Virus genome (UHGV): UHGV-1888586
Direction: 5' to 3' (one strand)
Source of the DNA: a virus
Length of the DNA stretch: 20,217 nt
Of the stretch, positions 1,775 to 17,731 are shown in pieces. Numbering within the stretch: the stretch's first letter is position 1; each line of letters starts with the position of its first letter. The translations under genes were made by a program, and so were the position numbers. The notes under the pieces are model-generated. The model was not told the DNA's origin, made no database searches, and saw only the letters and a program-made list of their open reading frames with translations.

Positions 1775-2419
1775 ATGAATTTTCCGGGCCCAGCATCAAC
1801 TGCTTCTTATTTAAGATCTAATTACAGCAGAGATTTCTTGACTATTCAGTGTGGTGAATACACATACGGAAAACCAAGAATTGAGATTGGGATGCATGAC
1901 GACAAGCGAATTCTTTCAATTGGTGAATATTGCTCTATAGCTTTCGACGTTGTGATTTTTGTTGGAAGACAAGGTCGTCATGCGACAAATACATTAACAA
2001 GTTACCCGCTAAATATGGTTGTAGATCCTGAGTTAAGAAATGGATTTAACCCTACAGGACATATATGGCAGGCGAGCTCTGACATATTTGGGAAAGATCT
2101 TGATGTTATCATAGGGCATGATGTATGGATTGGTTCTAGATGTACAATTTTAGCAGGGGTTAATATTGGAACTGGTGCCATCATTGCCGCAGGTTCTGTT
2201 GTTACTAAAGATGTACCGCCATATGCAATTGTAGGAGGAGTACCAGCTAAGGTTATTAGATACAGACATCCTCCAGAAATAATTGATAGATTATTAAAGA
2301 CTGAATGGTGGAAGTTAAAACCTAATGAGCTGTGGAATTTGATTGGTTCATCTTTCGGGACGTCTAATATTGAAATCCCATTAAAAATATTAGAAAACAG
2401 AAGCGCTTCAGAAAAATAA
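1775..2419 (+). CDS. Hexapeptide-repeat acetyltransferase of the XAT (CatB/Vat-like) family; prophage moron
   Basis: 214 aa. Putative catalytic His in GRQGRHATNTLTSYPL (compare the CatB/Vat NH..DG.T.YPF motif), left-handed beta-helix hexapeptide repeats (IGHDVWIGSRCTILAGVNIGTGAIIAAGSVVTKDVPPYAIVGGVPAKVIRYR), and the XAT-type C-terminal tail (EIIDRLLKTEWWKLKP). The gene is clearly more AT-rich than the flanking int and virion genes. Confidence 0.8.
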   Translation: MNFPGPASTASYLRSNYSRDFLTIQCGEYTYGKPRIEIGMHDDKRILSIGEYCSIAFDVVIFVGRQGRHATNTLTSYPLNMVVDPELRNGFNPTGHIWQASSDIFGKDLDVIIGHDVWIGSRCTILAGVNIGTGAIIAAGSVVTKDVPPYAIVGGVPAKVIRYRHPPEIIDRLLKTEWWKLKPNELWNLIGSSFGTSNIEIPLKILENRSASEK

Positions 2420-2513: not shown

Positions 2514-4877
2514 TTATATATTTTCTCTCATTTCTATCATTTCAATTCTAGATAATGCTTTTTGGTAATTCCTGCGTTGTAATGCAGCTTCAAGGACTAA
2601 AGCCTCTTCATAACGAATACCATAACGTGAGCCTGCCGGAGTGACCAGAATATCTTCATATTCTGGATCTGCCTCTTCTTCATACTCTTCTTCTACTTCT
2701 TGAAACTCTGTCTCGATGTACTCCTCTTCTACATCTTCAACTACAGGAACGCTTACGAATGGATTTTGCGCAAAAGGTGAACCATCTTCATTAAGAACAG
2801 GTATCATTTCCATTTTTGGAGTCTGATACTCTTCATTCACTACTCGTTTAATCCGTGTTCCGTCTTCCAGTACCTCATCCTTTAATATCTGACGACTCTC
2901 AGTAACCATCACTGGTTTGCTTACAATTCGAGTTTTAGTAACCTGCACTGGAACTGTTGTTATGCGAGTTTTAGTAACCATTACACCTTCGTTTGTCTGA
3001 ACCTTAGTATATTGATCATCCCACTCGTCAAAGCAAAAGAATCCAAATCGGTGCACATCAAGCCCATGACGTTCAAACGCCTCCTTTGCACGTTGAGCTA
3101 TTACGCCAAAATGCCAACGAGCTCCGTCTTCTCCTTTTTCTTCTGTTCTGTCAAGATACTGAAATTGAACGAAGTCAACCTCTGACCATGCGTCAAGTAT
3201 TGTATCAGTGATTTCAAGAGGTGCAGTTTTAGCTCGCTCATCTGAAGTAACGGTAAAGGCTGTTTGAGTGAATCCACCAGACCATGGAAGTGTGCTTATT
3301 CCACAACTAAATGCATTTCCCGTTGCAGGATGCAGGTTTTTGTTTACTTGAATAGTCCCAGATCCTGATGCCTCCAGTCTAACAGAACAATTAGAAACAC
3401 CCTCGGTAGCAATTCTAACTACTGGAGATGAATCACTTGCGGTATATAACCTGAAAGAACCTTTATCACCATCGGAATAGGTAATTCTAAGCATTCTAAA
3501 TCCATTACCATCAACATCAAAAGCCCTATTCCTTAAATGGACGCCTGTTCTTTGCGTTGTGTCTGTAACCTTAGAATTTATGTAGCTTAACGTTTGTCCC
3601 TGACCATTTTCCCAACCGATTCTATATGAATTCCTCAATAACAAGGCCTTCATATAAGTTTCCACACCTTCTTCTGATGAGAATTGCCTTAGAACACTTA
3701 ATGGGAATGTTATCCCTGCCCCCCATTTTGCACCATTAGAGCTAATACTCAGCGCTTGAGTGCAGTCCTCTGTAAGACCATTGATTGTAGGATCAGCACC
3801 GGCAACTATCGATACTCCATTTGTTTTGCCTTTATTTATGGTTTCATGTACATCAACATATTCTCCATGATTGGCCACTGCAATCTCGGCACCCCATGTC
3901 GTTCCATTAGCACCAGACATTCGTTTTGCATCAAGATAAAGAGACCATACATTTGATGTAGAAACTGTTAAGTCATTTAATGCTGCGCCTACAATTCCAA
4001 TTGCCGCACCGCCCTGATTTATTTTATTGTGCGCTGCACCTGCTATACCAATTGTACCAAGAGATGCATAACTTATAAGAGTGGCATTATTTTCTATCCA
4101 TCCAAGATTTGGCTGCATTGTTCCGTTAGGGGCCATAATGTCCTTCTGACCAAGCCATGTGTTTTGTTCTCCGGATGCGTCCCGCTTACCAGAATAATCA
4201 TAGGCAGCATCACCAACAAATAATCTAGGATATCTTGCTGGGTTCACTGGCGCATCAGGTGATGACCAGACAGATCGACGCTTAAGCATCACGCATCCCG
4301 AACCAATAAATTTAGCCTCGTTATCTACAATAAAATTACCCTTATGGATAGAATTTAATAAGTACGTACCTGTAGGAACATAAACATCACCGGAAAACAA
4401 TGCAGCGGAAGCGAATGCGCCGTCCGAATCAACAACCCCTGTCGGGTCAGCACCTCCTGCAAAACCACTCCAAGTAACAGGCTTTGCTAATCCTCCGACA
4501 AATCCAGCTCCACCAGGACCCTCCAGTTCAGATCGCAGTTGATCAGGGTCATACTTCAGCACATTAGGAAAATAGAACTGCTGTGCACCATATGCATCGT
4601 ACACAGCCATGGAGTGGCCTTGCACAGTTACGAATTTGGCAATCTGTCCGTTATATACAGGGTAACCAGCGGCGTTAATGATGATTGGCTGTGCAACAGG
4701 AACGTGAGAGCCGTCTTCATTCTCCACATAAACCTGAATCTGGTTTTCAGGATTTACCGGGTCAGTGTCAATTTTACCGATATAAATTTTGCCATTAGCT
4801 ACGGCTTTAAAAGAACGCGCCATAGTGAAGAGTTGCGAAGGCATGCTTACCACAACATTTGCGGTGATATCTGACAT
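2514..4877 (-). CDS. Tailspike: P22-type N-terminal head-binding domain, divergent receptor-binding domain, C-terminal intramolecular chaperone (peptidase S74-like) domain
   Basis: 787 aa from the ATG at 4877 (GGAG 8 nt upstream); the track ORF extends 16 codons further to 4925. The first ~115 aa ([11 protein letters not shown]...[22 protein letters not shown]...[13 protein letters not shown]...NVLKYDPDQ) closely match the P22 gp9 head-binding domain. The C-terminal region has the S74 hallmark TSDERAKT followed by RWHFGVIAQ. Confidence 0.9.
2517..3245 (-). other. Predicted autocleaved C-terminal chaperone domain of the tailspike; predicted scissile Ser codon at 3243-3245
   Basis: The SDERAK motif matches the SDxRxK Ser-Lys dyad motif of intramolecular chaperone domains in endosialidases and the T5 L-shaped fibre. 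The 243-aa region also contains 12-aa tandem repeats ([12 protein letters not shown] / [12 protein letters not shown]) and an acidic tract ([30 protein letters not shown]). Confidence 0.6.
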
Positions 4878-4902
4878 TTCATTGCTCCAGACGAATGATA
4901 TG

Positions 4903-4925
4903 ATGCAACCATGATGTGATTGCAT
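4903..4925. promoter_or_regulatory. Candidate operator palindrome in the mnt-tailspike divergent intergenic region
   Basis: ATGCAA-N11-TTGCAT inverted repeat within the 121-bp spacer between the divergently arranged tailspike ATG (4877) and mnt ATG (4999). The right half-site doubles as a possible -35 (TTGCAT) for mnt. Confidence 0.3.
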
Positions 4926-5265: not shown

Positions 5266-5335
5266 AAATCTAGTTTCCGGCTAAAATGGCATTGCCTTCA
5301 TGCTATCCTGTGAAAAACTAAGGAGAGTTAACCAT

Positions 5336-5821
5336 ATGAAAAAATTACTGTTAATTATCCCGCTTCTGCTGGTTGGATGCGCAAAAGTAAGTGACTATCA
5401 AGCAAGTTGCGAACAACGCTATCAAAAGCTTAGCGATATGGCTAATTGCCTTGATGCCAGTGTGAAGAACGACTCACGCATGGCATCAGCACCAACACCT
5501 AAGCTGTATGTCCTTGCTGCAAAGATGCTCGGGCAAGGTGTCGATGAAGGCAAGATAAGTGACGCACAGGCAAGACTTGAGCTTCAGAATCTTTATGTTC
5601 AATTACAAAGCCAAGAACAAGCCCAACAAATAGCACAAAGCCAAGCATTCCAGCAGGCTTTATTGAATTATCAGGCTGTAAACACAATGCAAGCGATCGA
5701 GCAAAAAGCGAGACAGCCTGTTATAACTCAACCCTATCCAACACGCGTTGACACTTACACAAACTGCAATTCAGGGTTTGGAAATACAGTCACATGCAAC
5801 AGTAGCAGTAACATAAGATAA
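5336..5821 (+). CDS. Prophage lipoprotein, unknown function, in the sieA-equivalent position
   Basis: 161 aa from the ATG at 5336 with AAGGAG upstream; the track ORF starts at 5300. Signal peptide MKKLLLIIPLLLVGC with lipobox LVGC, Ala at +2, a Gln-rich helical middle, and a Cys-containing C-terminus (TYTNCNSGFGNTVTCNSS). Confidence 0.75.
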   Translation: MKKLLLIIPLLLVGCAKVSDYQASCEQRYQKLSDMANCLDASVKNDSRMASAPTPKLYVLAAKMLGQGVDEGKISDAQARLELQNLYVQLQSQEQAQQIAQSQAFQQALLNYQAVNTMQAIEQKARQPVITQPYPTRVDTYTNCNSGFGNTVTCNSSSNIR

Positions 5822-5911: not shown

Positions 5912-7909
5912 CTATTCTGACAACGCATCAGACTTAGCCCCCTGCGTCAGAGCGTTAATTGCCTTTTGTGCCTGCTGCATTGCTTTCTCAAAGGCTGTTG
6001 ATCCGCGTGGGGTGTTTGCCATTCGGAGCATTGCATTTCTGAATGGCTCGCTCTCATATGCGCGAGTAAGAAGTCCGTAGCTTACTGCTGCGCCAGTTGT
6101 CGCCGGGTTCATTGCTGTCCCATATCCGATAATGAACGGGATGGTTTGCTGCCCTGTTGGTGTTGTTACTGCCGCTTTTGCAGCCTGCTGCGTGGATTGC
6201 AGGTAGTTTTTCAATCCTTTCAGATAAGCAGCGTCCTGCCCCTTAAATGTGATGCCAGTCTGGTTTTGCAGGATGTTAAGCTGTCGAAGGAACTGGTCAG
6301 GGGATCCTCCAGATTTCTCCATCGCCTTTCCAATGATGCCATTGCGCATTTGCGCCCTGCCAACACGACCAACTGAGTTATACAGCGTCTTAATTTCAGA
6401 TTTGTTCTTGCTGAATAGCATGTTGTTGACAACTTCCGGCGTCAGGTCGCCTTTCATGAGAACATTCTTCAGCCTGGTATTCTTTAGTTTCGCCGCTTCG
6501 TCAGCGTAGACGGCATTGGCCTGCTGATATTTACGGAGAGTATCGTTGCCAAGATTCTGACCAATGGCACCATTGATATCGTCTGTCATCGCCTTGTAAA
6601 CGCGCTGAATGGCGGCATCGGAACGGTTTGGTAACACTGGTCGCTCACCCTTCACGTCCATTCTGAACTGGCTGCGCAGATCGCTTAATTGCTTCAAATC
6701 CAGATTTACCGGACCATCAGGACCAGCATTGCGAACAAGCTCATCACGATAGGACTGAAGTTTTGAAATAGTCTCGTTATCGGCGACCTTACCAAGCTTC
6801 TGCAGGTTAGATATTTCTGTATCAATCTGCTGAATTGCTCGAGCAGGCTGGATATTGACTCCCGCCATTGCATTCTGAACCTGCTCAAGACGGTTCCCTG
6901 CAGCACGACGAATTCCTGATGTTTTCGCTTTAAGGCTGTCAATAACAACAGCTGGATCATACTCACCGAATTTATCAGCAAATCTCTGCACCAACTGGCT
7001 TCTCGCTTCCTGTTGCGTTGCTCTCATCCCGCTTGTGCCAGCCAGGGGGATATTTTCCGCTGTCGTCTGCGCCATTTTCCCGACGCGGGAAGTAGGCTGT
7101 AACAGGTCTGTGGTGTGCAGAGGAACTCCTTCACGCTCTGCAAATCTGATAGCCTGCTGCGCTTCTGGCGCAATAGCACCACGAACGCCACGATAAGCAG
7201 CACCTAACCCACGTCCGGCAGCGTTAATAGCACCGCCAGCCAGCACACCAACGCCTAAATCGGTAGCAAGTGCTTCCGCATCATCTTTCATACTGTTTGC
7301 AGCAAGTGATCCAACTGCGTTTTCTGCGAGAAGGCGAGTTGCCCCCTGAGCAATTCGACCAGCAAGTGTTGGTGCCTGTACCGCCGCTCTCTCAACGCCA
7401 GAAGGAGTGAGGTAAGGCAATGCCTCAGCAAATACCCTGCCCTCTGTAGTTTGTGGAGTCAGCGCGCCTTGCTGAAGGCCAAAGTCCTGCTCTAATCCCT
7501 GCGTTGTTACTCGTGGCGCTGGTTGATATGTACCATCACCAATGCCGAGTTTACCGCCAGCCCAAGCCGCCGCACTTGTTACAGCATCGGCAACTGATGC
7601 AGGTATGTTTGCCACGTTCACGCCAGCCTGCACCAGTCCGCGACCAGTCTCTCTTACTGCTTCGCCAAGATCAGACATAAATCCACTTTGCTGTGGTTGT
7701 TGCTGTGCTAATGGTTGTTGTGTCTCCACTGGCTGCACAGATGGCAATGGATAGGCAGCATAGAAAGCTTGCTTAGCCTGCTCTGCATTTTCTCCGGCTT
7801 GCGGGGCCACGACTTCATTGAAGTATTGCTCCTGAGCCTGCGCTTTTTGTTCTGGTGCTAACGCCTGATACTGTGGAGAGGCGATAACATCTTTCCATGC
7901 TTTAGCCAT
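5912..7909 (-). CDS. Ejection (DNA transfer) protein, P22 gp16-like
   Basis: 665 aa, last gene of the 7-20-16 ejection trio, Gln/Ala-rich composition; start codon overlaps the gp20-like stop. Called mainly on synteny and size (P22 gp16 about 609 aa). Confidence 0.75.
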   Translation of the reverse strand: MAKAWKDVIASPQYQALAPEQKAQAQEQYFNEVVAPQAGENAEQAKQAFYAAYPLPSVQPVETQQPLAQQQPQQSGFMSDLGEAVRETGRGLVQAGVNVANIPASVADAVTSAAAWAGGKLGIGDGTYQPAPRVTTQGLEQDFGLQQGALTPQTTEGRVFAEALPYLTPSGVERAAVQAPTLAGRIAQGATRLLAENAVGSLAANSMKDDAEALATDLGVGVLAGGAINAAGRGLGAAYRGVRGAIAPEAQQAIRFAEREGVPLHTTDLLQPTSRVGKMAQTTAENIPLAGTSGMRATQQEARSQLVQRFADKFGEYDPAVVIDSLKAKTSGIRRAAGNRLEQVQNAMAGVNIQPARAIQQIDTEISNLQKLGKVADNETISKLQSYRDELVRNAGPDGPVNLDLKQLSDLRSQFRMDVKGERPVLPNRSDAAIQRVYKAMTDDINGAIGQNLGNDTLRKYQQANAVYADEAAKLKNTRLKNVLMKGDLTPEVVNNMLFSKNKSEIKTLYNSVGRVGRAQMRNGIIGKAMEKSGGSPDQFLRQLNILQNQTGITFKGQDAAYLKGLKNYLQSTQQAAKAAVTTPTGQQTIPFIIGYGTAMNPATTGAAVSYGLLTRAYESEPFRNAMLRMANTPRGSTAFEKAMQQAQKAINALTQGAKSDALSE

Positions 7910-11158: not shown

Positions 11159-12576
11159 TACTCAATCCTTATCTGGCAGCCAGACAGAGTGACAGGTGAC
11201 TTCGTGATAACGCGCAATTTGAAGCCGACATTTTTCCTGATGCGCCCTACTCGCTTCCACAAAACGCGTTTGTCGTAAACGAACGGTTCATTCTGCTCAA
11301 TCATCTGCTCACGTCCGTAATTGATGCCGTCAGTGGTTGCAGAGAGGAACAGGCGGTCAGCGTACTGCGCAACTCCAGTTGACGATTCAACTTCAAGGTC
11401 GAAAACTCTGGCGTTATTCGCTTTGAACAACGGAGTAAACAGCAGGTGCTCCTGTTGCTTGTCGTACTGGCTGCTGATATCGAACTGCAATTTCCCGGTA
11501 ACCGATTCCAGCTTATCGCCGCACGTTATCTGATTGCCTTCGTAAATGAAGTCGATAGCGCGGTACACATCGTCATACAAGCCAGTTTTCAGCACACACC
11601 ATTGCGGACCATTGGCGCTTGAAGATGCGTCGTACACAAGGACGTGACGCGGAAGATGGATAATCAGCAACTCATGCGCATCAAATCGCAAAGACTCCAT
11701 CACACCATCAGCCAGTTCATCAGCAGTGTAGGAGCGGAGTATTTTCTCAATGCTCGCGCTGGCGATTGGTGACACCTGACCGGAGCCGATGATGTATACA
11801 GATGGCGCACCAGTTGCCGGATTGCTGATAAACGCATACGAATCAGCGAATGGCGTTTTGCAGTAAGTTCCGGCAATGCCTTTCTGCACCATCAGCGATG
11901 GTTGTGCAACATACAAAGCGGCACCAACGGTGGTTGCACCTGTCAGGGAAAAATATTCAATAGTCGATGAACCAAAGCAGACAATGAAGTCTCGCCATGT
12001 TCCGATTCCGATGATTCCGTCCGGCTGCGATTCTGCCCGATATTGTGCGCTGTAGCGGTCAGGATGCGATTCGTCTCCAAGGTCAGTGATAAACCATGAA
12101 TCAGTTCCGTCTTTTGACCACGCATAACGCCCACGTAAGCGCGTAATGTCGCGAACCGAACCTAACTCATACTGCGTGAATCCGCTGTCTGTAGGCCAGT
12201 TTGAGACGGTTTTAACCGTGCCATCATAACGATACTCTACCAGTTGACCATTAACGCCTACAGCCTGAGATGTCCGACCATGCGCCATTGATACACGACC
12301 ACTTCCAGCGACGTCACCGACTTCGCTTTCGCCTTTGTAGAGCTTGCCGCCACACACGCGATAAACAGCACTCTGCGCCATGTTGTACTCGACGCCGCGA
12401 GATACACCATTCACATCAGAACGTTTGGCAATGCCCGGGAATGAGCGAAGATATCCGCTGCTGTTGAGGATTTCTTTGGGTGTAGCCAGCATATTCACTG
12501 GAAGATAGTCGATATAGTCGGCGTTTCGAAAGTCTTTGCCGACACCTTTCATAAGCGGAAGTTGCTGAATCGGCAT
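11158..12576 (-). CDS. Head completion / tail accessory protein, P22 gp10-like
   Basis: 472 aa, the same length as P22 gp10, in the conserved 4-10-26 order; start overlaps the gp4-like stop. Confidence 0.82.
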
Positions 12577-13076
12577 TATTCGCTCCCGTTATCGCAAGGT
12601 TCCTTTCGGTGGAAGTAATTCCAACCGTTCCACTTCGCCAACTGGTTACCGCTACCAACAGGCATACGGTTTGGATAACCGGACTTACATTTAGCGGCTT
12701 TTGCTCTGTCCATTGCAGACAGTTTGACGAGTCGCTCTTTCCCGTATCTGGCAGTGGTTATAAGTTTTGCAGGCGCTTCCAGCGCATAATCCGGTGCAAT
12801 GCGGCAGGCAAGGTTGAAAATAACAGCATTGATAGCGTTATTTGATAAACCGTGCTCATCGCCCGGATCCGGAGCAACATCTGCATCAGCAAAAATGTAG
12901 CCAACGTTGATACCAGGTGACGCATCACCGCCAAGCCATTCAGCCATCATCATTTCAAGGTCGTTGACGCCGTCTTCCATAGACTGCGGTTCGACATCTG
13001 TTAACGTGGCATTTGATGCCACACCGAGCTTACGTAATGCCGCAAGAACTAAATCACCCTTCGTTGTCAGGTTCAT
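12576..13076 (-). CDS. Head completion / tail accessory protein, P22 gp4-like
   Basis: 166 aa from the internal ATG at 13076 ([33 protein letters not shown]...); the track ORF extends upstream to 13163. Matches P22 gp4 in sequence and length; the upstream extension overlaps the preceding small ORF and is rejected. Confidence 0.85.
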
Positions 13077-13302
13077 CTGCTGCCGCCTTAGGTTTTCTAC
13101 CAGGCTTTTTACGCTGTTTTTCTTCCGGCTCTGGCTCTGGCTCTGGCTCTGGCTCTGCAACATCCTTCAGAAGATCATCAGGATGTGCAAACCAGCCAGC
13201 ATCCAGATATTCCTGAAGCTCTTCGGCTTTCACGATTTCAAAGTCGTATCCAACGCCTTTCCATTTCTTCATGTCGCCATGACGAAAGATCATGTGTGTC
13301 AT
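13054..13302 (-). CDS. Small protein with an (EP)5 repeat and a basic C-terminal tail, between coat and gene 4
   Basis: 82 aa from the ATG at 13302 with GGAGA 5 nt upstream ([82 protein letters not shown]). The track ORF extends upstream into the coat gene. The 3' end overlaps the gp4 start by 23 nt in another frame. A small hypothetical gene is recalled at this position in Sf6-type genomes; this is unverified. Confidence 0.55.
13128..13157. repeat. Perfect hexanucleotide tandem repeat (GGCTCT)5 encoding (EP)5
   Basis: Five uninterrupted GGCTCT units on the plus strand, read as GAGCCA (Glu-Pro) on the coding minus strand. The unit length is a multiple of 3, so copy-number change would alter linker length but not frame. 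Confidence 0.95.
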
Positions 13303-13314
13303 GCTTGTCTCCAG

Positions 13315-13338
13315 ATAAAAAGGGAGCCGAAGCTCCCT
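13315..13338 (-). terminator. Intrinsic terminator-like hairpin immediately downstream of the coat gene
   Basis: On the minus-strand transcript: AGGGAGC-UUCG-GCUCCCU (7-bp GC-rich stem, UUCG tetraloop; plus-strand 13321-13338) followed by UUUUAU (plus-strand 13315-13320). It starts 8 nt after the coat stop and is directly followed by the RBS of the next ORF. Confidence 0.6.
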
Positions 13339-13345
13339 CTGGTTA

Positions 13346-14641
13346 TCACGCGGTCTGATTAGGCAGACCAACACCAATTGCCTCTGGTCGTACAGCACAT
13401 GCTGAATACCACACAGCAATACGGCACTTACCAGACAGAGTGTTGATATCACCCTGCGTTGCGAAGATGCCGTTAACACCAATACCAGGAATGCTGAAGG
13501 AAGACGTTTTCATGCCAGCAAACAGTTCATGGGTTACCGGGATCGGCTGAGACAGCAGACGGATTGAGTCATCAGCCCAGAACACGTTAGCGGTGGTTGT
13601 TGCCACGTTCAGAACGTTTACCGGAGTGGTATCAGCAAGAGAGGTGTTTACGTTAGCGTAAGCCTTCTCTTCTTTTGTCAGTGACGCGTCATCCAGCGCA
13701 ATCGGCTTCGGCGTGATTTCGATGTGAGTACTATCGATCACACGGGTGATTGAGAAAGTTGCATCATCAGTCAGCACGTTCTTCGCCATCTGAGACAGGA
13801 ATTTCACACCAGTGAAACTGATTTTGTCGCCGCGCTTAAATCCGGTGGTGGAGGATACGGTCACCGTTGCAACACGGTTGTCGACGTTCTCTTTGTTACC
13901 ATCGGTATCAAGGGTGTATGCCTGCGGCTTAAACTTCTGCGCACCAGAAACAGTTACACCAGTAGCGGTTGACTTGGTAACTGCCGGAAGTTTCGGTGAG
14001 CGAAGAATTTCATCAAAGCCAGCAATCTGACGCTGAATAGTACCGTTGTGATACGCGTCTTCAGGAACGCGCCCAAAGATGTCACCATCTACCAGGTTGC
14101 GGCCTGCTTTGCGGTAATCGTCAGGGTTCAGGAAGTAACTGATGCCCATATCGCGGTTTAGCTCACGGGAGAACATCAGGCGCTCTGCATCAGACACAAA
14201 ATCCCAGCCAGACAGGCCAGTAGATGGACCAATTGCGCGGGTATCGTGAACAACAAGTGAGCCCATTTCGGTTGCCTGTTTGGCAATTGCTGACTCAATG
14301 TTATTCGCCAGTTTTTTGGCGGATGCCTGGATGCGGCGACGGTAAGAACGCTCATCACGCAGGTCATCTGCACGAAGCTCGAAGAAATCGTTATCCGGAT
14401 CGCCCATGTTGCATTTCACGGAGAGTTCCAGAATCCCGGTTGCGTTGCCAGTTAAATCCCAGCCAGTCTGGGTTGGCGCTTCCTGCTCAACAGGCATCCA
14501 CACGGTGTTGCTTGAACGTTGCATGGATTCTGCCGGAGGGGTGTATTTTGTCACTTTGGACGCCATTGGCGTCAGGTTCTGGACGGTTTCGATGATTTCA
14601 TCCAGAGCATACGTGACCAGTTGACCTTCATTTAATGCCAT
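13346..14641 (-). CDS. Major capsid (coat) protein, P22 gp5-like (HK97-fold)
   Basis: 431 aa; the N-terminus and most of the length closely match P22 coat protein ([52 protein letters not shown]). ATG overlaps the scaffold stop (TAATG). Confidence 0.95.
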
Positions 14642-15565: not shown

Positions 15566-17731
15566 TTATTGAGGTGTCTCGGCTACTCCGCCGGAGGGGA
15601 TTTGAACTTGACGCATAAGATTCGCGAAATCCATGCGTTGTGAATGAGTCTGGTCTGCATCTTTAAGAAGCAGCTCAGCGTTAGCACGAGCATCTTTGCT
15701 GCGCTGTTGCTGGAATTGACCTACGAGCTTGAGGTACTCACGCAGTTCTGCCTGCTTGTCGAGGTCCATATTGTTGAAGATTTCCGCAATCTTCGCGGCG
15801 TTGAGTTGGTTTTGTGCTTCAACCTTGGCAGCTTCAACCTGAATCTGCGCCTGTTGGTTCTCTGCCTTGAGCAATTCAGCCTGACCTTGCAGAAGGATGC
15901 CCTGCGCCTGAATTTGCTCTGCTGATGGCTGCTGCGGCTGCTGTTGTGCCTGCTGCACCATCTCCATCTCTTCAGGTGTTTCTGGTTTCTTCAGCCCCAT
16001 CATCACCAGTTGCTTGTTCGCGTACTCTCGCATCATCTCGACGCCTTTACCGTCAAGCAGCGTGAAGTATTGCAGCATCAGCATCTGGAACTCTGGAGTA
16101 CCTTGCGGAACCTTGGTGAGCAACTCCTGAATCTCTGCGCGGTTCTGTTCCTTCATACTCTGGAAGGATGGTCCGACGTCTGTATAGCACTCATAGCGAC
16201 CGCGAATGTCGTTGAGTGTGACCACATTGCCGGACTGGTAATCGACAACTTGCGCGTAGAGTTGAACGTCTTTCTCGCTTCCATCTTCAAGTGTCAGCGT
16301 TACATGACGAGGAACGTCATAAATATCGTTGACCATTGAGGCATAAATCTCGCCATCACGTCGCATTGCGGTAGCCAGGTTATCCTGAAACACGTATGTC
16401 TCAAGGTCTGCCCGCATGTTCAGTTGATTGACGGTATCGAAAGCGACCTGACCATTTGCCGCCTGCGCATCCACGCCAAGACTAGCCACCTCTTTCACTG
16501 CGTTGGTGGCAGCCTCAAGCATGTAAGCGTTGGCTTGCGGCACTTCAGGGTTTTCCATGTAGGAGATTGGACCAATCGGCAGGTCGTTACCGTTTTCATC
16601 GGTCTTGTTCTGCAGATAGTACGGATAGTCATCATTTCCACCGTACATGTATTCGTAGCCTTCGATTTGCTCAGGGAAGAAGGTCGGTTTCTTCTTCGGT
16701 GAACGAGCAACAATATCGGCGTTGAATGACATGATCATGTTACGAAGGCGTTGACCGTCTTTCGTCAGCCTTACCACTCCTTCGTAGCACTCCTTGTCAC
16801 CAGCGAATGACCATTCGCCGTACACAGGAACTATTGGGATATGCTCTCCGGCTATCTTCTCGCGGTCTTTCAGTATCTGCATGCAGGTGATGATCGACTT
16901 ATACACACGCCGACGCTTGACCTTACGCTCTGCTACCTTAATGAATCCACGATTAGCCAGGTCATCGATGACGTCTTTGATATCCTGCTGGTAATAGCTG
17001 ACCGGCTCACCTGTCAGCGGGTCGCGGTAGATGAAGACTTTCTCTTTCTTCTCTTCGACCTCGTAATACTCAGCGACGTAGACGACATCATTCGATACCC
17101 ACGGAAACAGCCATGTATCGTTCGGATTCTGGAAAGATGGCAAGGTGTCCGGATCAATACCGTAATCCTCTGCGAACTCTTTCCAGCCATTGCGCGACAA
17201 GGCGTTAATCACCGTGCAGTGCTTAGCGTCGCTCTTATCCATCTGCTTGCTGTTGGCGTCCCATATGACGTGTGAGCAGGCTTCATGGATTGGCAGGCGT
17301 CGGATTACCTGATTGTTGCTTGTTGGGTCGTTGTCTTCGTACTGGGTGACCAGACGCCATGCACCAACGCCGGACTCTATCTGCTCACGAACGCCAACGT
17401 TAACGGCAATCTTTGCCGTGTTATGGCGCATATCAGTACGATACATCCCCATCAACACATCGGCTGCATCAGGATTAGCGCCGTCTTTGGGTCGGAAGAG
17501 AACGTCGATAGGGTTCCGGCGCATCTCTGCGACCAGTTTCCTGACCACCGGGCGAACAACATCGAATTGTCCGCGATATTGCAGGGTGGTGTAGTTTGAT
17601 AGCCAGTCATCCCATTGCGACACTCGGCTAAAATACAGGTCATTTGTCGCCTCGGTTCTGGCTTCATCGCTCGCCATCCAGTCCGCGTCAAACTTACACA
17701 GAATGGAATTGAGTCTGTTTTCGTCGGCCAT
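15566..17731 (-). CDS. Portal protein, P22 gp1-like
   Basis: 721 aa; near-collinear match to the P22 portal ([44 protein letters not shown], and the C-terminal Gln-rich barrel region). Confidence 0.95.

What the first reader, a model, noticed from the sequence alone, without database searches (positions are those of the whole stretch)
13054..13302. EP-repeat small protein between coat and gene 4, with a slippage-prone (GGCTCT)5 tract and an AT-hook-like basic tail
The virion operon is otherwise tightly packed in P22 order, but an extra 82-aa ORF lies between coat and gene 4. It has a good RBS immediately after the coat terminator hairpin, a perfect 30-bp hexanucleotide repeat encoding (EP)5, and a C-terminus ([16 protein letters not shown]) resembling a DNA-binding AT-hook. 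Its last 23 nt overlap the gene-4 start out of frame. The repeat can expand or contract without frameshifting, giving a variable-length linker.
Basis: seen in the sequence. Interest (0 to 1): 0.5.

Follow-up and report, generated by a model that had tools for sequence, protein, structure and literature searches.

The report
P22 orf69-type gene with variable EP repeat
The small gene between the coat and gene 4 is real, but it is the counterpart of phage P22's uncharacterised orf69 rather than an extra gene, and its Glu-Pro spacer is a six-base repeat that ranges from 0 to 33 copies among related prophages.

Summary
An 82-codon ORF lies on the minus strand at 13054-13302. It contains a perfect 30-nt hexanucleotide tract (13127-13156) encoding (EP)5, follows a hairpin and a GGAG ribosome-binding site, and overlaps gene 4 by 23 nt. 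It is not an extra gene. P22 orf69 sits in the same slot, and both match PHROG 1175 (unknown function) over their full length. dN/dS of 0.05-0.24 shows the peptide is under selection. The predicted protein has three parts: a folded 48-residue N-domain, a disordered acidic EP spacer, and a basic GRKPK tail with an acidic end. The repeat is a genuine in-frame VNTR. I found 0 to 33 copies, and 10 of 15 groups of loci with identical flanks differ in copy number. The tail lacks the AT-hook RGRP core, although some relatives have it. About a fifth of the sampled E. coli prophages with this coat and gene 4 carry an allele with a WDGH domain inserted between the N-domain and the EP repeat. Function is inferred only. 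The most likely role is a non-structural, DNA-contacting head-assembly accessory, positionally analogous to lambda FI. This is a member of a known but uncharacterised family, of moderate interest.

The parts
13317..13340 (-). Hairpin (stem GGGAGC 13337-13332, loop UUCG, stem GCUCCC 13327-13322) with a U-run at 13321-13317, directly after the coat stop codon (13346-13348). It has the form of an intrinsic terminator or an mRNA-stabilising stem-loop.
   Evidence: The fold is -20.8 kcal/mol with z = -2.7. The same element is aligned in 12 phages including P22, Sf6, a Proteus phage and a Pseudomonas phage, and 2 of its 6 pairs show compensatory changes. It is annotated as a stem_loop in P22 and as terminator 't coat' in Sf6.
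13309..13312 (-). Shine-Dalgarno GGAG, 6 nt upstream of the ORF's ATG (13300-13302).
   Evidence: Read from the sequence. GGAG is conserved at this position in 11 of the 12 aligned phages.
13054..13302 (-). The 82-codon gene, a homologue of P22 orf69 and a member of PHROG 1175.
   Evidence: Synteny of coat, ORF, gene 4 holds in 98 of 99 loci. dN/dS is 0.05-0.24.
13159..13302 (-). N-terminal folded mini-domain, codons 1-48: a beta-hairpin, a helix carrying the [10 protein letters not shown] motif, and a short second helix.
   Evidence: The AlphaFold2 model has pLDDT 85-91 for residues 1-40. W14, G16, E28, Y32, G36, W37 and P41 are invariant from E. coli to Pseudomonas phages. Residues 21-39 match a module repeated in homing endonucleases, with hhalign probability 96.5%.
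13127..13156 (-). In-frame hexanucleotide VNTR encoding (EP)5, read as (GGCTCT)5 on the plus strand. It forms the disordered acidic spacer.
   Evidence: Copy number ranges from 0 to 33 in relatives. pLDDT is below 50. It is also the right-hand junction of the WDGH allele replacement.
13084..13119 (-). Basic tail [12 protein letters not shown] (+7 net charge), AT-hook-like but without the RGRP core. Its last codons, AAA-CCT-AAG-G, contain the gene 4 Shine-Dalgarno sequence (AAGG, 13086-13089).
   Evidence: Charge. The RKKPG codons vary synonymously while AAA-CCT-AAG is invariant. Relatives carry RGRP. The Pfam AT_hook model gives no match for the window protein.
13054..13076 (-). The 23-nt out-of-frame overlap between the ORF's 3' end (acidic end DEPDNEG, stop TGA 13054-13056) and the start of gene 4 (ATG 13074-13076).
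   Evidence: The junction is an overlap or a 4-nt gap in every relative examined.
12576..13076 (-). Gene 4 homologue (head-tail adaptor, 'packaged DNA stabilization' protein), the downstream partner in translation.
   Evidence: PF11650, E 4.3e-58.
13346..14641 (-). Coat protein gene, the upstream neighbour.
   Evidence: PF11651, E 1.2e-164.

Best explanation
SHOWN. This is a genuine late gene of a P22-like prophage and the orthologue, by family and position, of P22 orf69. It belongs to a fixed cassette: coat stop, GC-rich UUCG hairpin with a U-run, GGAG, small ORF, gene 4. The cassette is conserved from E. coli to Pseudomonas phages.

The product (9.5 kDa, pI 4.8) has three parts:
- a folded 48-residue N-domain;
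- a disordered acidic (Glu-Pro)n spacer;
- a 12-residue basic GRKPK tail followed by an acidic end.

The spacer is encoded by a pure GAGCCA array. The array changes length by slipped-strand mispairing faster than the flanks acquire substitutions. Because the unit is 6 nt, the frame is never lost. The protein tolerates 0 to 33 units, and even a whole WDGH domain inserted at the same point. The ORF ends on top of the gene 4 ribosome-binding site and start codon.

INFERRED.
- Ribosomes finishing the ORF probably help initiate gene 4 (translational coupling). The hairpin probably sets the high-coat, low-downstream expression ratio.
- The protein most likely acts as a non-structural head-assembly or DNA-packaging accessory that contacts DNA. 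The basic tail would bind DNA in an AT-hook-like way. The N-domain shares its core motif with a module repeated in the presumed DNA-binding regions of GIY-YIG/HNH homing endonucleases.
- The two ends are joined by a tether whose exact length is not critical. This would make it a functional counterpart of lambda gpFI, which occupies the identical cassette position (E, hairpin, RBS, FI, FII) and is also small, acidic and has a charge-rich central segment.

My confidence is about 0.95 in the gene, family and VNTR part, about 0.4 in DNA binding, and about 0.25-0.3 in the FI-like packaging role.
For: Family and synteny:
- PHROG 1175 matches are full length for the window ORF (E 3.8e-37) and for P22 orf69 (E 4.5e-31).
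- The ORF occupies the same slot in P22, SEN22, a Proteus phage, a Pseudomonas phage and Sf6.
- The ORF lies between coat and gp4 in 98 of 99 fetched loci.

Coding:
- dN/dS is 0.05-0.24 at dS of about 1-1.4, and the ratio exceeds 1 in the other frames.

Architecture:
- AlphaFold2 gives pLDDT 85-91 for residues 1-40 and below 50 for residues 51-65.

VNTR:
- (EP)24 and (EP)33 alleles occur in complete E. coli genomes, and a Citrobacter prophage has 0 copies.
- 10 of 15 identical-flank groups differ in copy number, and 549 of 611 units are GAGCCA.
- Spans across 226 E. coli records change in 6-nt steps.

Tail under peptide-level selection:
- The RKKPG codons vary synonymously.
- RGRP versions occur in relatives and give weak Pfam AT_hook matches.

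N-domain motif:
- hhalign gives 96.5% probability, E 8e-10, against 39 copies of the homing-endonuclease module.

Cassette analogy with lambda FI:
- The hairpin, RBS and gene layout are the same.
- The P22 record itself notes that the stem-loop resembles those of lambda and HK97 in location.
Against: - There is no experimental datum on any family member. No paper in the searchable library discusses the function of orf69.
- The whole protein is acidic (net -8, and far more negative in long alleles), which is unusual for a DNA binder. The window tail lacks the RGRP core, and Pfam AT_hook does not match it.
- The similarity to homing endonucleases covers only 19 columns. That module's DNA-binding role is itself only inferred from its location.
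- There is no sequence similarity to lambda FI (hhalign probability 0.1%), and the domain order differs, so the FI analogy is positional only.
- As far as I recall, classical P22 genetics never mapped an essential gene between genes 5 and 4, so any role may be subtle.
Confidence: 0.5

Rival explanations
1. Virion-delivered, DNA-tethered carrier. The basic tail holds the protein on the phage DNA, so it is packaged and injected with the genome. The N-terminal part, or an inserted cargo domain such as WDGH, then acts immediately in the new host, for example against a defence system.
For: - Alleles in the same slot carry a WDGH domain inserted exactly between the N-domain and the EP repeat, while the tail stays identical.
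- Elsewhere, WDGH is fused to a Tad2-like (Thoeris anti-defence) domain and a Sequestin domain. It also lies in an early region next to a Sequestin gene and a Lar-like gene.
- The gene is expressed late, together with the virion genes.
Against: - The window allele has no cargo domain.
- As far as I know, no such protein has been reported in P22 or Sf6 virions.
- PADLOC gives no hit, although it is a library of defence proteins rather than anti-defence proteins.
- The function of WDGH is unknown, and it has no structural neighbour.
- The argument rests on guilt by association only.
Confidence: 0.12
2. Capsid-surface fibre or decoration. The N-domain sits on the coat lattice, and the rigid polyproline-II EP rod holds a charged tip up to about 20 nm from the shell. 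The VNTR would then vary the reach of a surface appendage.
For: - The gene lies directly after the coat gene.
- Extreme length tolerance (0 to 33 units, roughly 0 to 20 nm) is easiest to accept for an outward-pointing appendage.
- Similar EP-VNTR small ORFs follow the major capsid gene in HK97-like phages and in a Dhillonvirus.
Against: - To my knowledge, published P22, Sf6 and CUS-3 capsid reconstructions show no decoration protein.
- The hairpin and the coupling to gene 4 imply low expression compared with coat.
- There is no similarity to known decoration proteins.
Confidence: 0.1
3. The peptide itself is unimportant. The ORF exists only to bring ribosomes past the hairpin to the gene 4 start, and its lysine-rich tail merely reflects an A-rich translation-initiation region for gene 4.
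For: - The stop codon lies on or just before the gene 4 start in every relative.
- The codons AAA-CCT-AAG carrying the gene 4 Shine-Dalgarno are invariant at the nucleotide level.
Against: - The N-domain shows strong purifying selection at the amino-acid level (dN/dS 0.05-0.24).
- Residues are invariant out to a Pseudomonas phage.
- The RKKPG codons vary synonymously while the amino acids are kept.
- Coupling is probably a second function of the ORF, not its only one.
Confidence: 0.05
4. The repeat is a contingency (phase-variation) locus that switches the gene, or gene 4, on and off.
For: It is a pure short tandem repeat with very high copy-number polymorphism.
Against: - The unit is 6 nt, and every observed allele keeps the frame.
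- The repeat lies about 50 nt upstream of the gene 4 start and outside its RBS, so length changes cannot switch either gene off.
Confidence: 0.03

Closest known systems
Phage P22 orf69 (NP_059631) and its relatives, grouped as PHROG 1175 (unknown function)
   Same: Both match the same profile family over their full length. Both sit between coat and gene 4 behind the same hairpin and overlap the gene 4 start. They share the same N-domain residues (W14, G16, E28, Y32, G36, W37, P41) and a GRKPKA tail.
   Different: P22 orf69 has a short non-repetitive acidic linker (PVEADDV) instead of the (EP)n VNTR. Identity is only about 35%. The function is unknown for both.
Lambda gpFI (DNA packaging chaperone)
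   Same: The cassette position is identical: major capsid gene stop, UUCG-loop hairpin, RBS, small acidic protein, head-completion gene. Both have a charge-rich central segment.
   Different: There is no detectable sequence similarity (hhalign probability 0.1%). FI is 132 aa, and from memory its folded domain is C-terminal. FI has no repeat and no basic tail.
AT-hook DNA-binding motif (Pfam PF02178)
   Same: Both are short basic Pro/Gly/Arg/Lys peptides in a disordered context. Some family members carry a true RGRP core (KRRGRPPKA, KKRGRPAKV).
   Different: The window tail is KKPGRKPKA, with no RGRP. The Pfam model does not match it, and relatives score below the gathering threshold.
TonB-type (Glu-Pro)n/(Lys-Pro)n spacers and Ala/Pro linkers of 2-oxo-acid dehydrogenase E2 chains
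   Same: An extended Pro-rich charged spacer lies between functional ends. The resemblance is strong enough that some database records name the protein 'dihydrolipoamide acetyltransferase'.
   Different: This is compositional resemblance only. There is no homologous domain, and here the spacer is encoded by a hypervariable pure hexanucleotide array.
DUF7210 / PHROG 5463 small proteins of HK97-like siphophages (Providencia PSTRCR_117lys, Pantoea AH07)
   Same: They occupy the same slot, between the major capsid gene and the adaptor. They have the same layout: an N-domain of about 40 residues, (EP)7-22 built from the same GAGCCA unit, and a short basic tail.
   Different: The N-domain belongs to a different family, and homology is not demonstrable (hhalign over 6 columns).

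Membership tests
P22 orf69 family (PHROG 1175) | Significant full-length match to the family profile | tested here: met
   The window ORF scores E 3.8e-37 over residues 1-80. P22 orf69 scores E 4.5e-31 against the same profile.
P22 orf69 family (PHROG 1175) | Position between the coat gene and the gene 4 homologue, ending at or over the gene 4 start | tested here: met
   It holds in 98 of 99 loci by tblastn.
P22 orf69 family (PHROG 1175) | Conserved N-domain residues and a GRKPKA-type tail | tested here: met
   Alignment A1 shows W14, G16, E28, Y32, G36, W37, P41, K72, A73 and D76 as invariant.
AT-hook (Pfam PF02178) | Core Arg-Gly-Arg-Pro flanked by basic residues | tested here: not met
   The window tail is KKPGRKPKA. 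RGRP is present only in relatives P0134, P0225 and P0235.
AT-hook (Pfam PF02178) | Match to the Pfam model at or above the gathering score (17.4 bits) | tested here: not met
   There is no match for the window protein at E <= 5. Relatives score 14.0 and 14.4 bits.
AT-hook (Pfam PF02178) | Binding to the minor groove of AT-rich DNA | not testable with these tools
   This needs a gel-shift or NMR titration.
In-frame VNTR generated by slipped-strand mispairing | Head-to-tail identical short units | tested here: met
   There are 5.2 copies at 100% identity, with none expected by chance.
In-frame VNTR generated by slipped-strand mispairing | Copy-number polymorphism between otherwise identical sequences, in steps of one unit | tested here: met
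   10 of 15 identical-flank groups differ. Spans of 378 to 570 nt change in 6-nt steps.
Contingency (phase-variable) locus | Repeat changes shift the frame or the promoter spacing and switch expression | tested here: not met
   The unit is 6 nt, and all alleles are in frame.
Intrinsic terminator or 3' stabilising stem-loop after the major capsid gene | GC-rich stem, short loop and a following U-run, conserved by structure | tested here: met
   with 2 of 6 pairs compensatory. It is annotated as such in P22 and Sf6.
Intrinsic terminator or 3' stabilising stem-loop after the major capsid gene | Actual termination or mRNA 3' ends at this site | not testable with these tools
   This needs RNA 3'-end mapping in induced lysogens.
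Lambda gpFI-like packaging chaperone | Sequence or profile similarity to gpFI | tested here: not met
   hhalign probability is 0.1%.
Lambda gpFI-like packaging chaperone | Gene directly after the major capsid gene and its hairpin, and before the head-completion genes | tested here: met
   Searches compared.
Lambda gpFI-like packaging chaperone | Stimulates binding of the terminase-DNA complex to proheads, and is absent from virions | not testable with these tools
   This needs in vitro packaging assays and virion proteomics.
Homing-endonuclease 'I..eeLQ.YLd.GW' repeat module | Profile similarity to the module | tested here: inconclusive
   hhalign gives 96.5% probability and E 8e-10, but over only 19 columns. 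The module is in neither Pfam nor the PDB.

The most novel reading that the evidence does not exclude
The slot between coat and gene 4 encodes a modular 'DNA-rider'. A conserved basic tail, genetically linked to gene 4, would tether an exchangeable N-terminal module to the phage chromosome. That module is either the mini-domain alone or the mini-domain plus a WDGH domain, a domain that elsewhere is fused to Tad2-like and Sequestin anti-defence domains. The protein would then be packaged and injected with the DNA as a ready-made effector. The hypervariable EP rod would be the flexible joint, and the recombination point, that lets modules be swapped.
Probability: 0.1. Interest if true: 0.75.

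Novelty: new member of a known kind. Interest (0 to 1): 0.4.

Why it matters
A small gene occupies this slot in every P22-like phage examined, and most of them belong to the orf69 family (Sf6 gene 6 sits in the slot but is not detectably related). P22 is one of the best-studied phages, yet this gene has no assigned function. Four results from this work turn an anonymous ORF into a set of testable hypotheses:
- The peptide is under purifying selection.
- It has a three-part, probably DNA-contacting architecture.
- It sits in the cassette position that lambda uses for its packaging chaperone FI.
- Its spacer tolerates anything from 0 to 33 EP units, or a whole inserted domain.

There are also practical consequences. 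The GAGCCA array is a hypervariable marker inside common E. coli prophages. It will be collapsed or mis-sized in short-read assemblies. It also misleads annotators: records name the protein 'dihydrolipoamide acetyltransferase', and in at least one phage record the antisense LWLWLW ORF is annotated instead.

Tried and rejected
- Pfam and NCBIfam give nothing for the window protein except a compositional match to trypanosome procyclin.
- PADLOC gives no hits.
- Rfam finds only a tRNA elsewhere in the window.
- PDB sequence searches found nothing with the family profile or with a homing endonuclease carrying the module. The module profile gave only one chance-level match, E 0.39.
- The afdb50 library was unavailable.
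- Ten literature searches and several full-text look-ups found no statement on the function of orf69. An 'ORF69' in the Stx2 phage paper is an unrelated gene in that phage's own numbering. I could not retrieve Casjens & Thuman-Commike 2011.
- A longer gene 4 starting at ATG 13163 and reading the repeat as (SQ)n is rejected. The Pfam gp4 model starts at residue 2 of the 166-aa form. That ATG has no spaced RBS and is not conserved in relatives whose sequence differs at that position.
- The plus-strand ORF 12907-13362 (LWLWLW) is the antisense of the repeat and is not a gene.
- Homology of Sf6 gene 6 (PHROG 3251) and of the DUF7210 proteins to this family could not be shown. I treat them as positional analogues.
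- The genome-contig scan gave only 10 loci, because the collection holds one genome per species.

Full report
**What is in the window.** The window is one end of a P22-like prophage. It starts with tRNA-Arg(CCT) at 102-176 and an integrase. An acetyltransferase-like gene and a tailspike follow. The rest, all on the minus strand, are the P22 virion genes in P22 order: small and large terminase, portal, scaffold, coat, gene 4, gene 10, a needle-like gene, gene 14, and the ejection proteins.

**The finding itself.**
- The finding lies between coat (13346-14641) and the gene 4 homologue (12576-13076).
- The ORF at 13054-13302(-) encodes 82 residues.
- Tandem Repeats Finder reports a single perfect period-6 array at 13127-13157.
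- The exact (GGCTCT)5 occurs once in the window and never in 100 shuffles. On the coding strand it is GAGCCA x4 plus GAGCCG, giving (EP)5.
- After the coat stop codon there is a GGGAGC-UUCG-GCUCCC stem followed by UUUUU (-20.8 kcal/mol, z = -2.7). GGAG then lies 6 nt before the ATG.
- The ORF's last 23 nt overlap the gene 4 start in another frame.

**It is a real gene, and it is not extra.**
- PHROGs places the protein in phrog_1175 (unknown function) over its whole length, E 3.8e-37.
- A tblastn search with the N-terminal 50 residues picked up weak matches at the same map position in P22 and many Salmonella phages.
- The P22 reference record annotates orf69 (69 aa) exactly there. It is preceded by a 'stem_loop ... 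similar in location to stem-loops in phage HK97 and phage lambda' and overlaps gene 4 by 17 nt.
- P22 orf69 matches phrog_1175 with E 4.5e-31.
- The slot is also filled in SEN22, a Proteus phage, Pseudomonas phage PfAn1 (151 aa) and Sf6. In Sf6 it is gene 6, behind an annotated 't coat' terminator.
- An alignment from E. coli to Pseudomonas keeps W14, G16, E28, Y32, G36, W37, P41 and a K-A-x-x-D in the tail.
- In 98 of 99 fetched loci the ORF lies between recognisable coat and gp4 homologues. The exception is Sf6, whose coat is too diverged to detect.
- Against prophages of Citrobacter, Kluyvera, Buttiauxella, Yersinia and Rahnella, the N-domain has dN/dS of 0.07-0.24 at dS of about 1-1.4. The same DNA read in the other two frames gives ratios of 1.6 and 2.3.
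- The hairpin is conserved as a structure in 12 phages, with compensatory changes in 2 of 6 pairs. GGAG follows in 11 of the 12.

**Architecture.**
- With a 39-sequence alignment, AlphaFold2 predicts a beta-hairpin (residues 2-14 and 17-25), a helix (26-34) and a short second helix (41-48).
- pLDDT is 85-91 over residues 1-40. Residues 51-65 and 72-74 are below 50 and the rest of the tail averages about 50, so residues 49-82 are effectively disordered.
- Segment charges are: N-domain -4, EP spacer -7, [12 protein letters not shown] +7, acidic end -4. The whole protein has pI 4.8.
- Neither sequence nor fold searches found a solved relative.

**The repeat is a hypervariable in-frame VNTR.**
- In complete E. 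coli genomes the 401-nt query spans 378 to 570 nt, always in 6-nt steps apart from a 1-nt intergenic indel.
- Fetched examples translate to (EP)24 and (EP)33 with perfectly pure GAGCCA arrays.
- A Citrobacter prophage has no EP unit at all (62 aa).
- In a systematic sample of the E. coli hits, copy number runs from 1 to 24 with a broad mode at 1-7.
In total 549 of 611 units are GAGCCA.
- Length therefore changes faster than point substitutions accumulate, as expected for replication slippage. The frame is never lost, so this is not an on/off contingency switch.
- EP spacers of 1-9 units are also present in the family in Klebsiella, Pectobacterium, Enterobacter, Yersinia and other genera. The spacer is a family trait, not an accident of this prophage.

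**The tail.**
- The window tail KKPGRKPKA lacks the RGRP core that defines an AT-hook. The Pfam model does not match it.
- Relatives have KRRGRPPKA, KKRGRPTKV and KKRGRPAKV, with sub-threshold AT_hook scores of 14.0-14.4 bits against a cut-off of 17.4.
- The RKKPG codons vary synonymously while the amino acids are kept, so the peptide is selected. AAA-CCT-AAG is invariant at the nucleotide level because it carries the gene 4 Shine-Dalgarno sequence.
- 'AT-hook-like' is thus a fair description of how the tail may work, but the window protein does not pass the membership test.

**Leads on function.**
- Homing-endonuclease module. An exhaustive search of 1.8 billion representatives with residues 1-50 found only 24 proteins. 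Besides short family members, they are GIY-YIG or HNH homing endonucleases with 3-6 tandem copies of a module of about 36 residues, 'I.k....K.I...eLQ.YLd.GW..G'. A profile of 39 such copies aligns to residues 21-39 of the family with 96.5% probability, E 8e-10. The module lies among NUMOD3 motifs in the region of these enzymes that normally binds DNA. It is described in neither Pfam nor the PDB.
- WDGH allele. 11 of the 57 sampled E. coli prophages with the same coat and gene 4 carry a 195-197-aa allele. It has a diverged N-domain, a Pfam WDGH domain (E 2e-39), and then the same AEPEP...[23 protein letters not shown] tail. The replaced segment runs from just before the start codon to inside the EP repeat, window 13140-13308. 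This architecture is widespread in Enterobacterales. WDGH has no known function and no structural neighbour. It does occur fused to Tad2-like and Sequestin domains, and in an early region next to Sequestin and Lar-like genes.
- Lambda FI. Lambda has the same cassette: E stop, GGCCC-UUCG-GGGCC hairpin, GGAGG, FI ('DNA packaging chaperone'), FII. FI shows no sequence similarity to this family.
- Other phage lineages. HK97-like phages of Providencia and Pantoea have, after their major capsid gene, a DUF7210 mini-domain followed by (EP)7 or (EP)22 made of the same GAGCCA unit, and then a short basic tail. A Dhillonvirus has a 154-aa head-module ORF ending in (EP)17.

**Interpretation.**
- Shown: a conserved, selected late gene of the orf69 family; a three-part product; a slippage-driven spacer whose length is largely free; and a stop codon placed on the gene 4 initiation region.
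- Inferred:
  - translational coupling to gene 4;
  - a role for the hairpin in setting the ratio of coat to downstream expression;
  - a DNA-contacting, non-structural head-assembly or packaging accessory that works like lambda FI, using the N-domain and the basic tail as two ends of a length-tolerant tether.
- The evidence for DNA contact is indirect, and the net acidity of the protein argues for caution.
- Rival readings are listed with their tests: an injected DNA-bound carrier, a surface fibre, a coupling-only ORF, and phase variation. The last two are largely excluded.

**Novelty and interest.** The gene family is already annotated as hypothetical (P22 orf69, PHROG 1175), so the object is a new member of a known but uncharacterised kind. 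Three things appear to be new:
- the extent of the EP VNTR;
- the cassette-like allele exchange at the repeat;
- the recurrence of the layout 'mini-domain, EP repeat, basic tail' after the capsid gene in unrelated head modules.

A specialist would find this moderately interesting.

Noticed in passing
L006 399-992 (E. coli strain 44), replacing window 13140-13308: An alternative allele in the same slot: a diverged N-domain, a Pfam WDGH domain (PF25311), and the identical EP/basic tail. It is present in 11 of 57 sampled E. coli prophages with the same coat and gene 4. RefSeq annotates it as two pseudogene fragments although the ORF is intact.
   Followed up: partly
P0293 in L104 5001-5798; P0289 in L105 5001-5609: Outside this slot, the WDGH domain occurs fused to Tad2-like (Thoeris anti-defence) and Sequestin domains, between the lysis genes and the terminase of a P22-like prophage. 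It also occurs in the early region of Klebsiella phage ZX1, near a Sequestin gene and a Lar-like gene. This hints at an anti-defence role for WDGH.
   Followed up: partly
P0129, P0132, P0135-P0140, P0142-P0144 (alignment A4): GIY-YIG and HNH homing endonucleases carry 3-6 tandem copies of a module of about 36 residues, 'I.k....K.I...eLQ.YLd.GW..G'. The module has no Pfam model and no solved structure. Its core matches residues 21-39 of the orf69-family N-domain.
   Followed up: partly
L100 1662-1880 (Providencia phage PSTRCR_117lys); L101 1656-1943 (Pantoea phage AH07): HK97-like siphophages have a small ORF between the major capsid gene and the adaptor. It consists of a DUF7210 N-domain, (EP)7 or (EP)22 built from the same GAGCCA unit, and a short basic tail (PHROG 5463). 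This is the same layout in a different head module.
   Followed up: partly
L103 1580-2044 (+) versus the annotated CDS at 1841-2047 (-) (Escherichia phage SM_A2): A 154-aa head-module ORF ends in (EP)17. The GenBank record instead annotates the antisense ORF that reads the repeat as LWLWLW, which is probably a mis-annotation caused by the repeat.
   Followed up: no
L106 1050-1110 (lambda, between E and FI): Lambda has the same micro-layout as here: capsid gene stop, GGCCC-UUCG-GGGCC hairpin, GGAGG, start of FI. The UUCG-loop hairpin after the capsid gene is shared across lambda, P22-like, Sf6 and Pseudomonas phages.
   Followed up: partly
window 12576-13163 (-) and 12907-13362 (+): Two mechanical ORFs read the repeat in other frames, as (SQ)n fused upstream of gene 4 and as (LW)n on the opposite strand. 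Neither is supported, but either could mislead gene callers.
   Followed up: yes
window 2514-4925 (-): The tailspike combines the P22 head-binding domain with a Peptidase_S74 (endosialidase-type intramolecular chaperone) domain. Its receptor-binding part therefore differs from that of P22.
   Followed up: no
window 5300-5821 (+) and 5912-7909 (-): A 173-aa ORF on the opposite strand, between the tailspike and the ejection-protein genes, has no Pfam match. The 665-aa ORF in the position of P22 gene 16 also has no Pfam match.
   Followed up: no
window 15915-15956: An imperfect trinucleotide (TGC-like) repeat of about 14 copies at 69% identity lies inside the 3' part of the portal gene.
   Followed up: no
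L093 2224-2500 (Kluyvera genomosp. 1): In this prophage about 280 nt of unrelated sequence lie between the coat stop and the orf69-type ORF, in place of the usual hairpin-only spacer.
   Followed up: no
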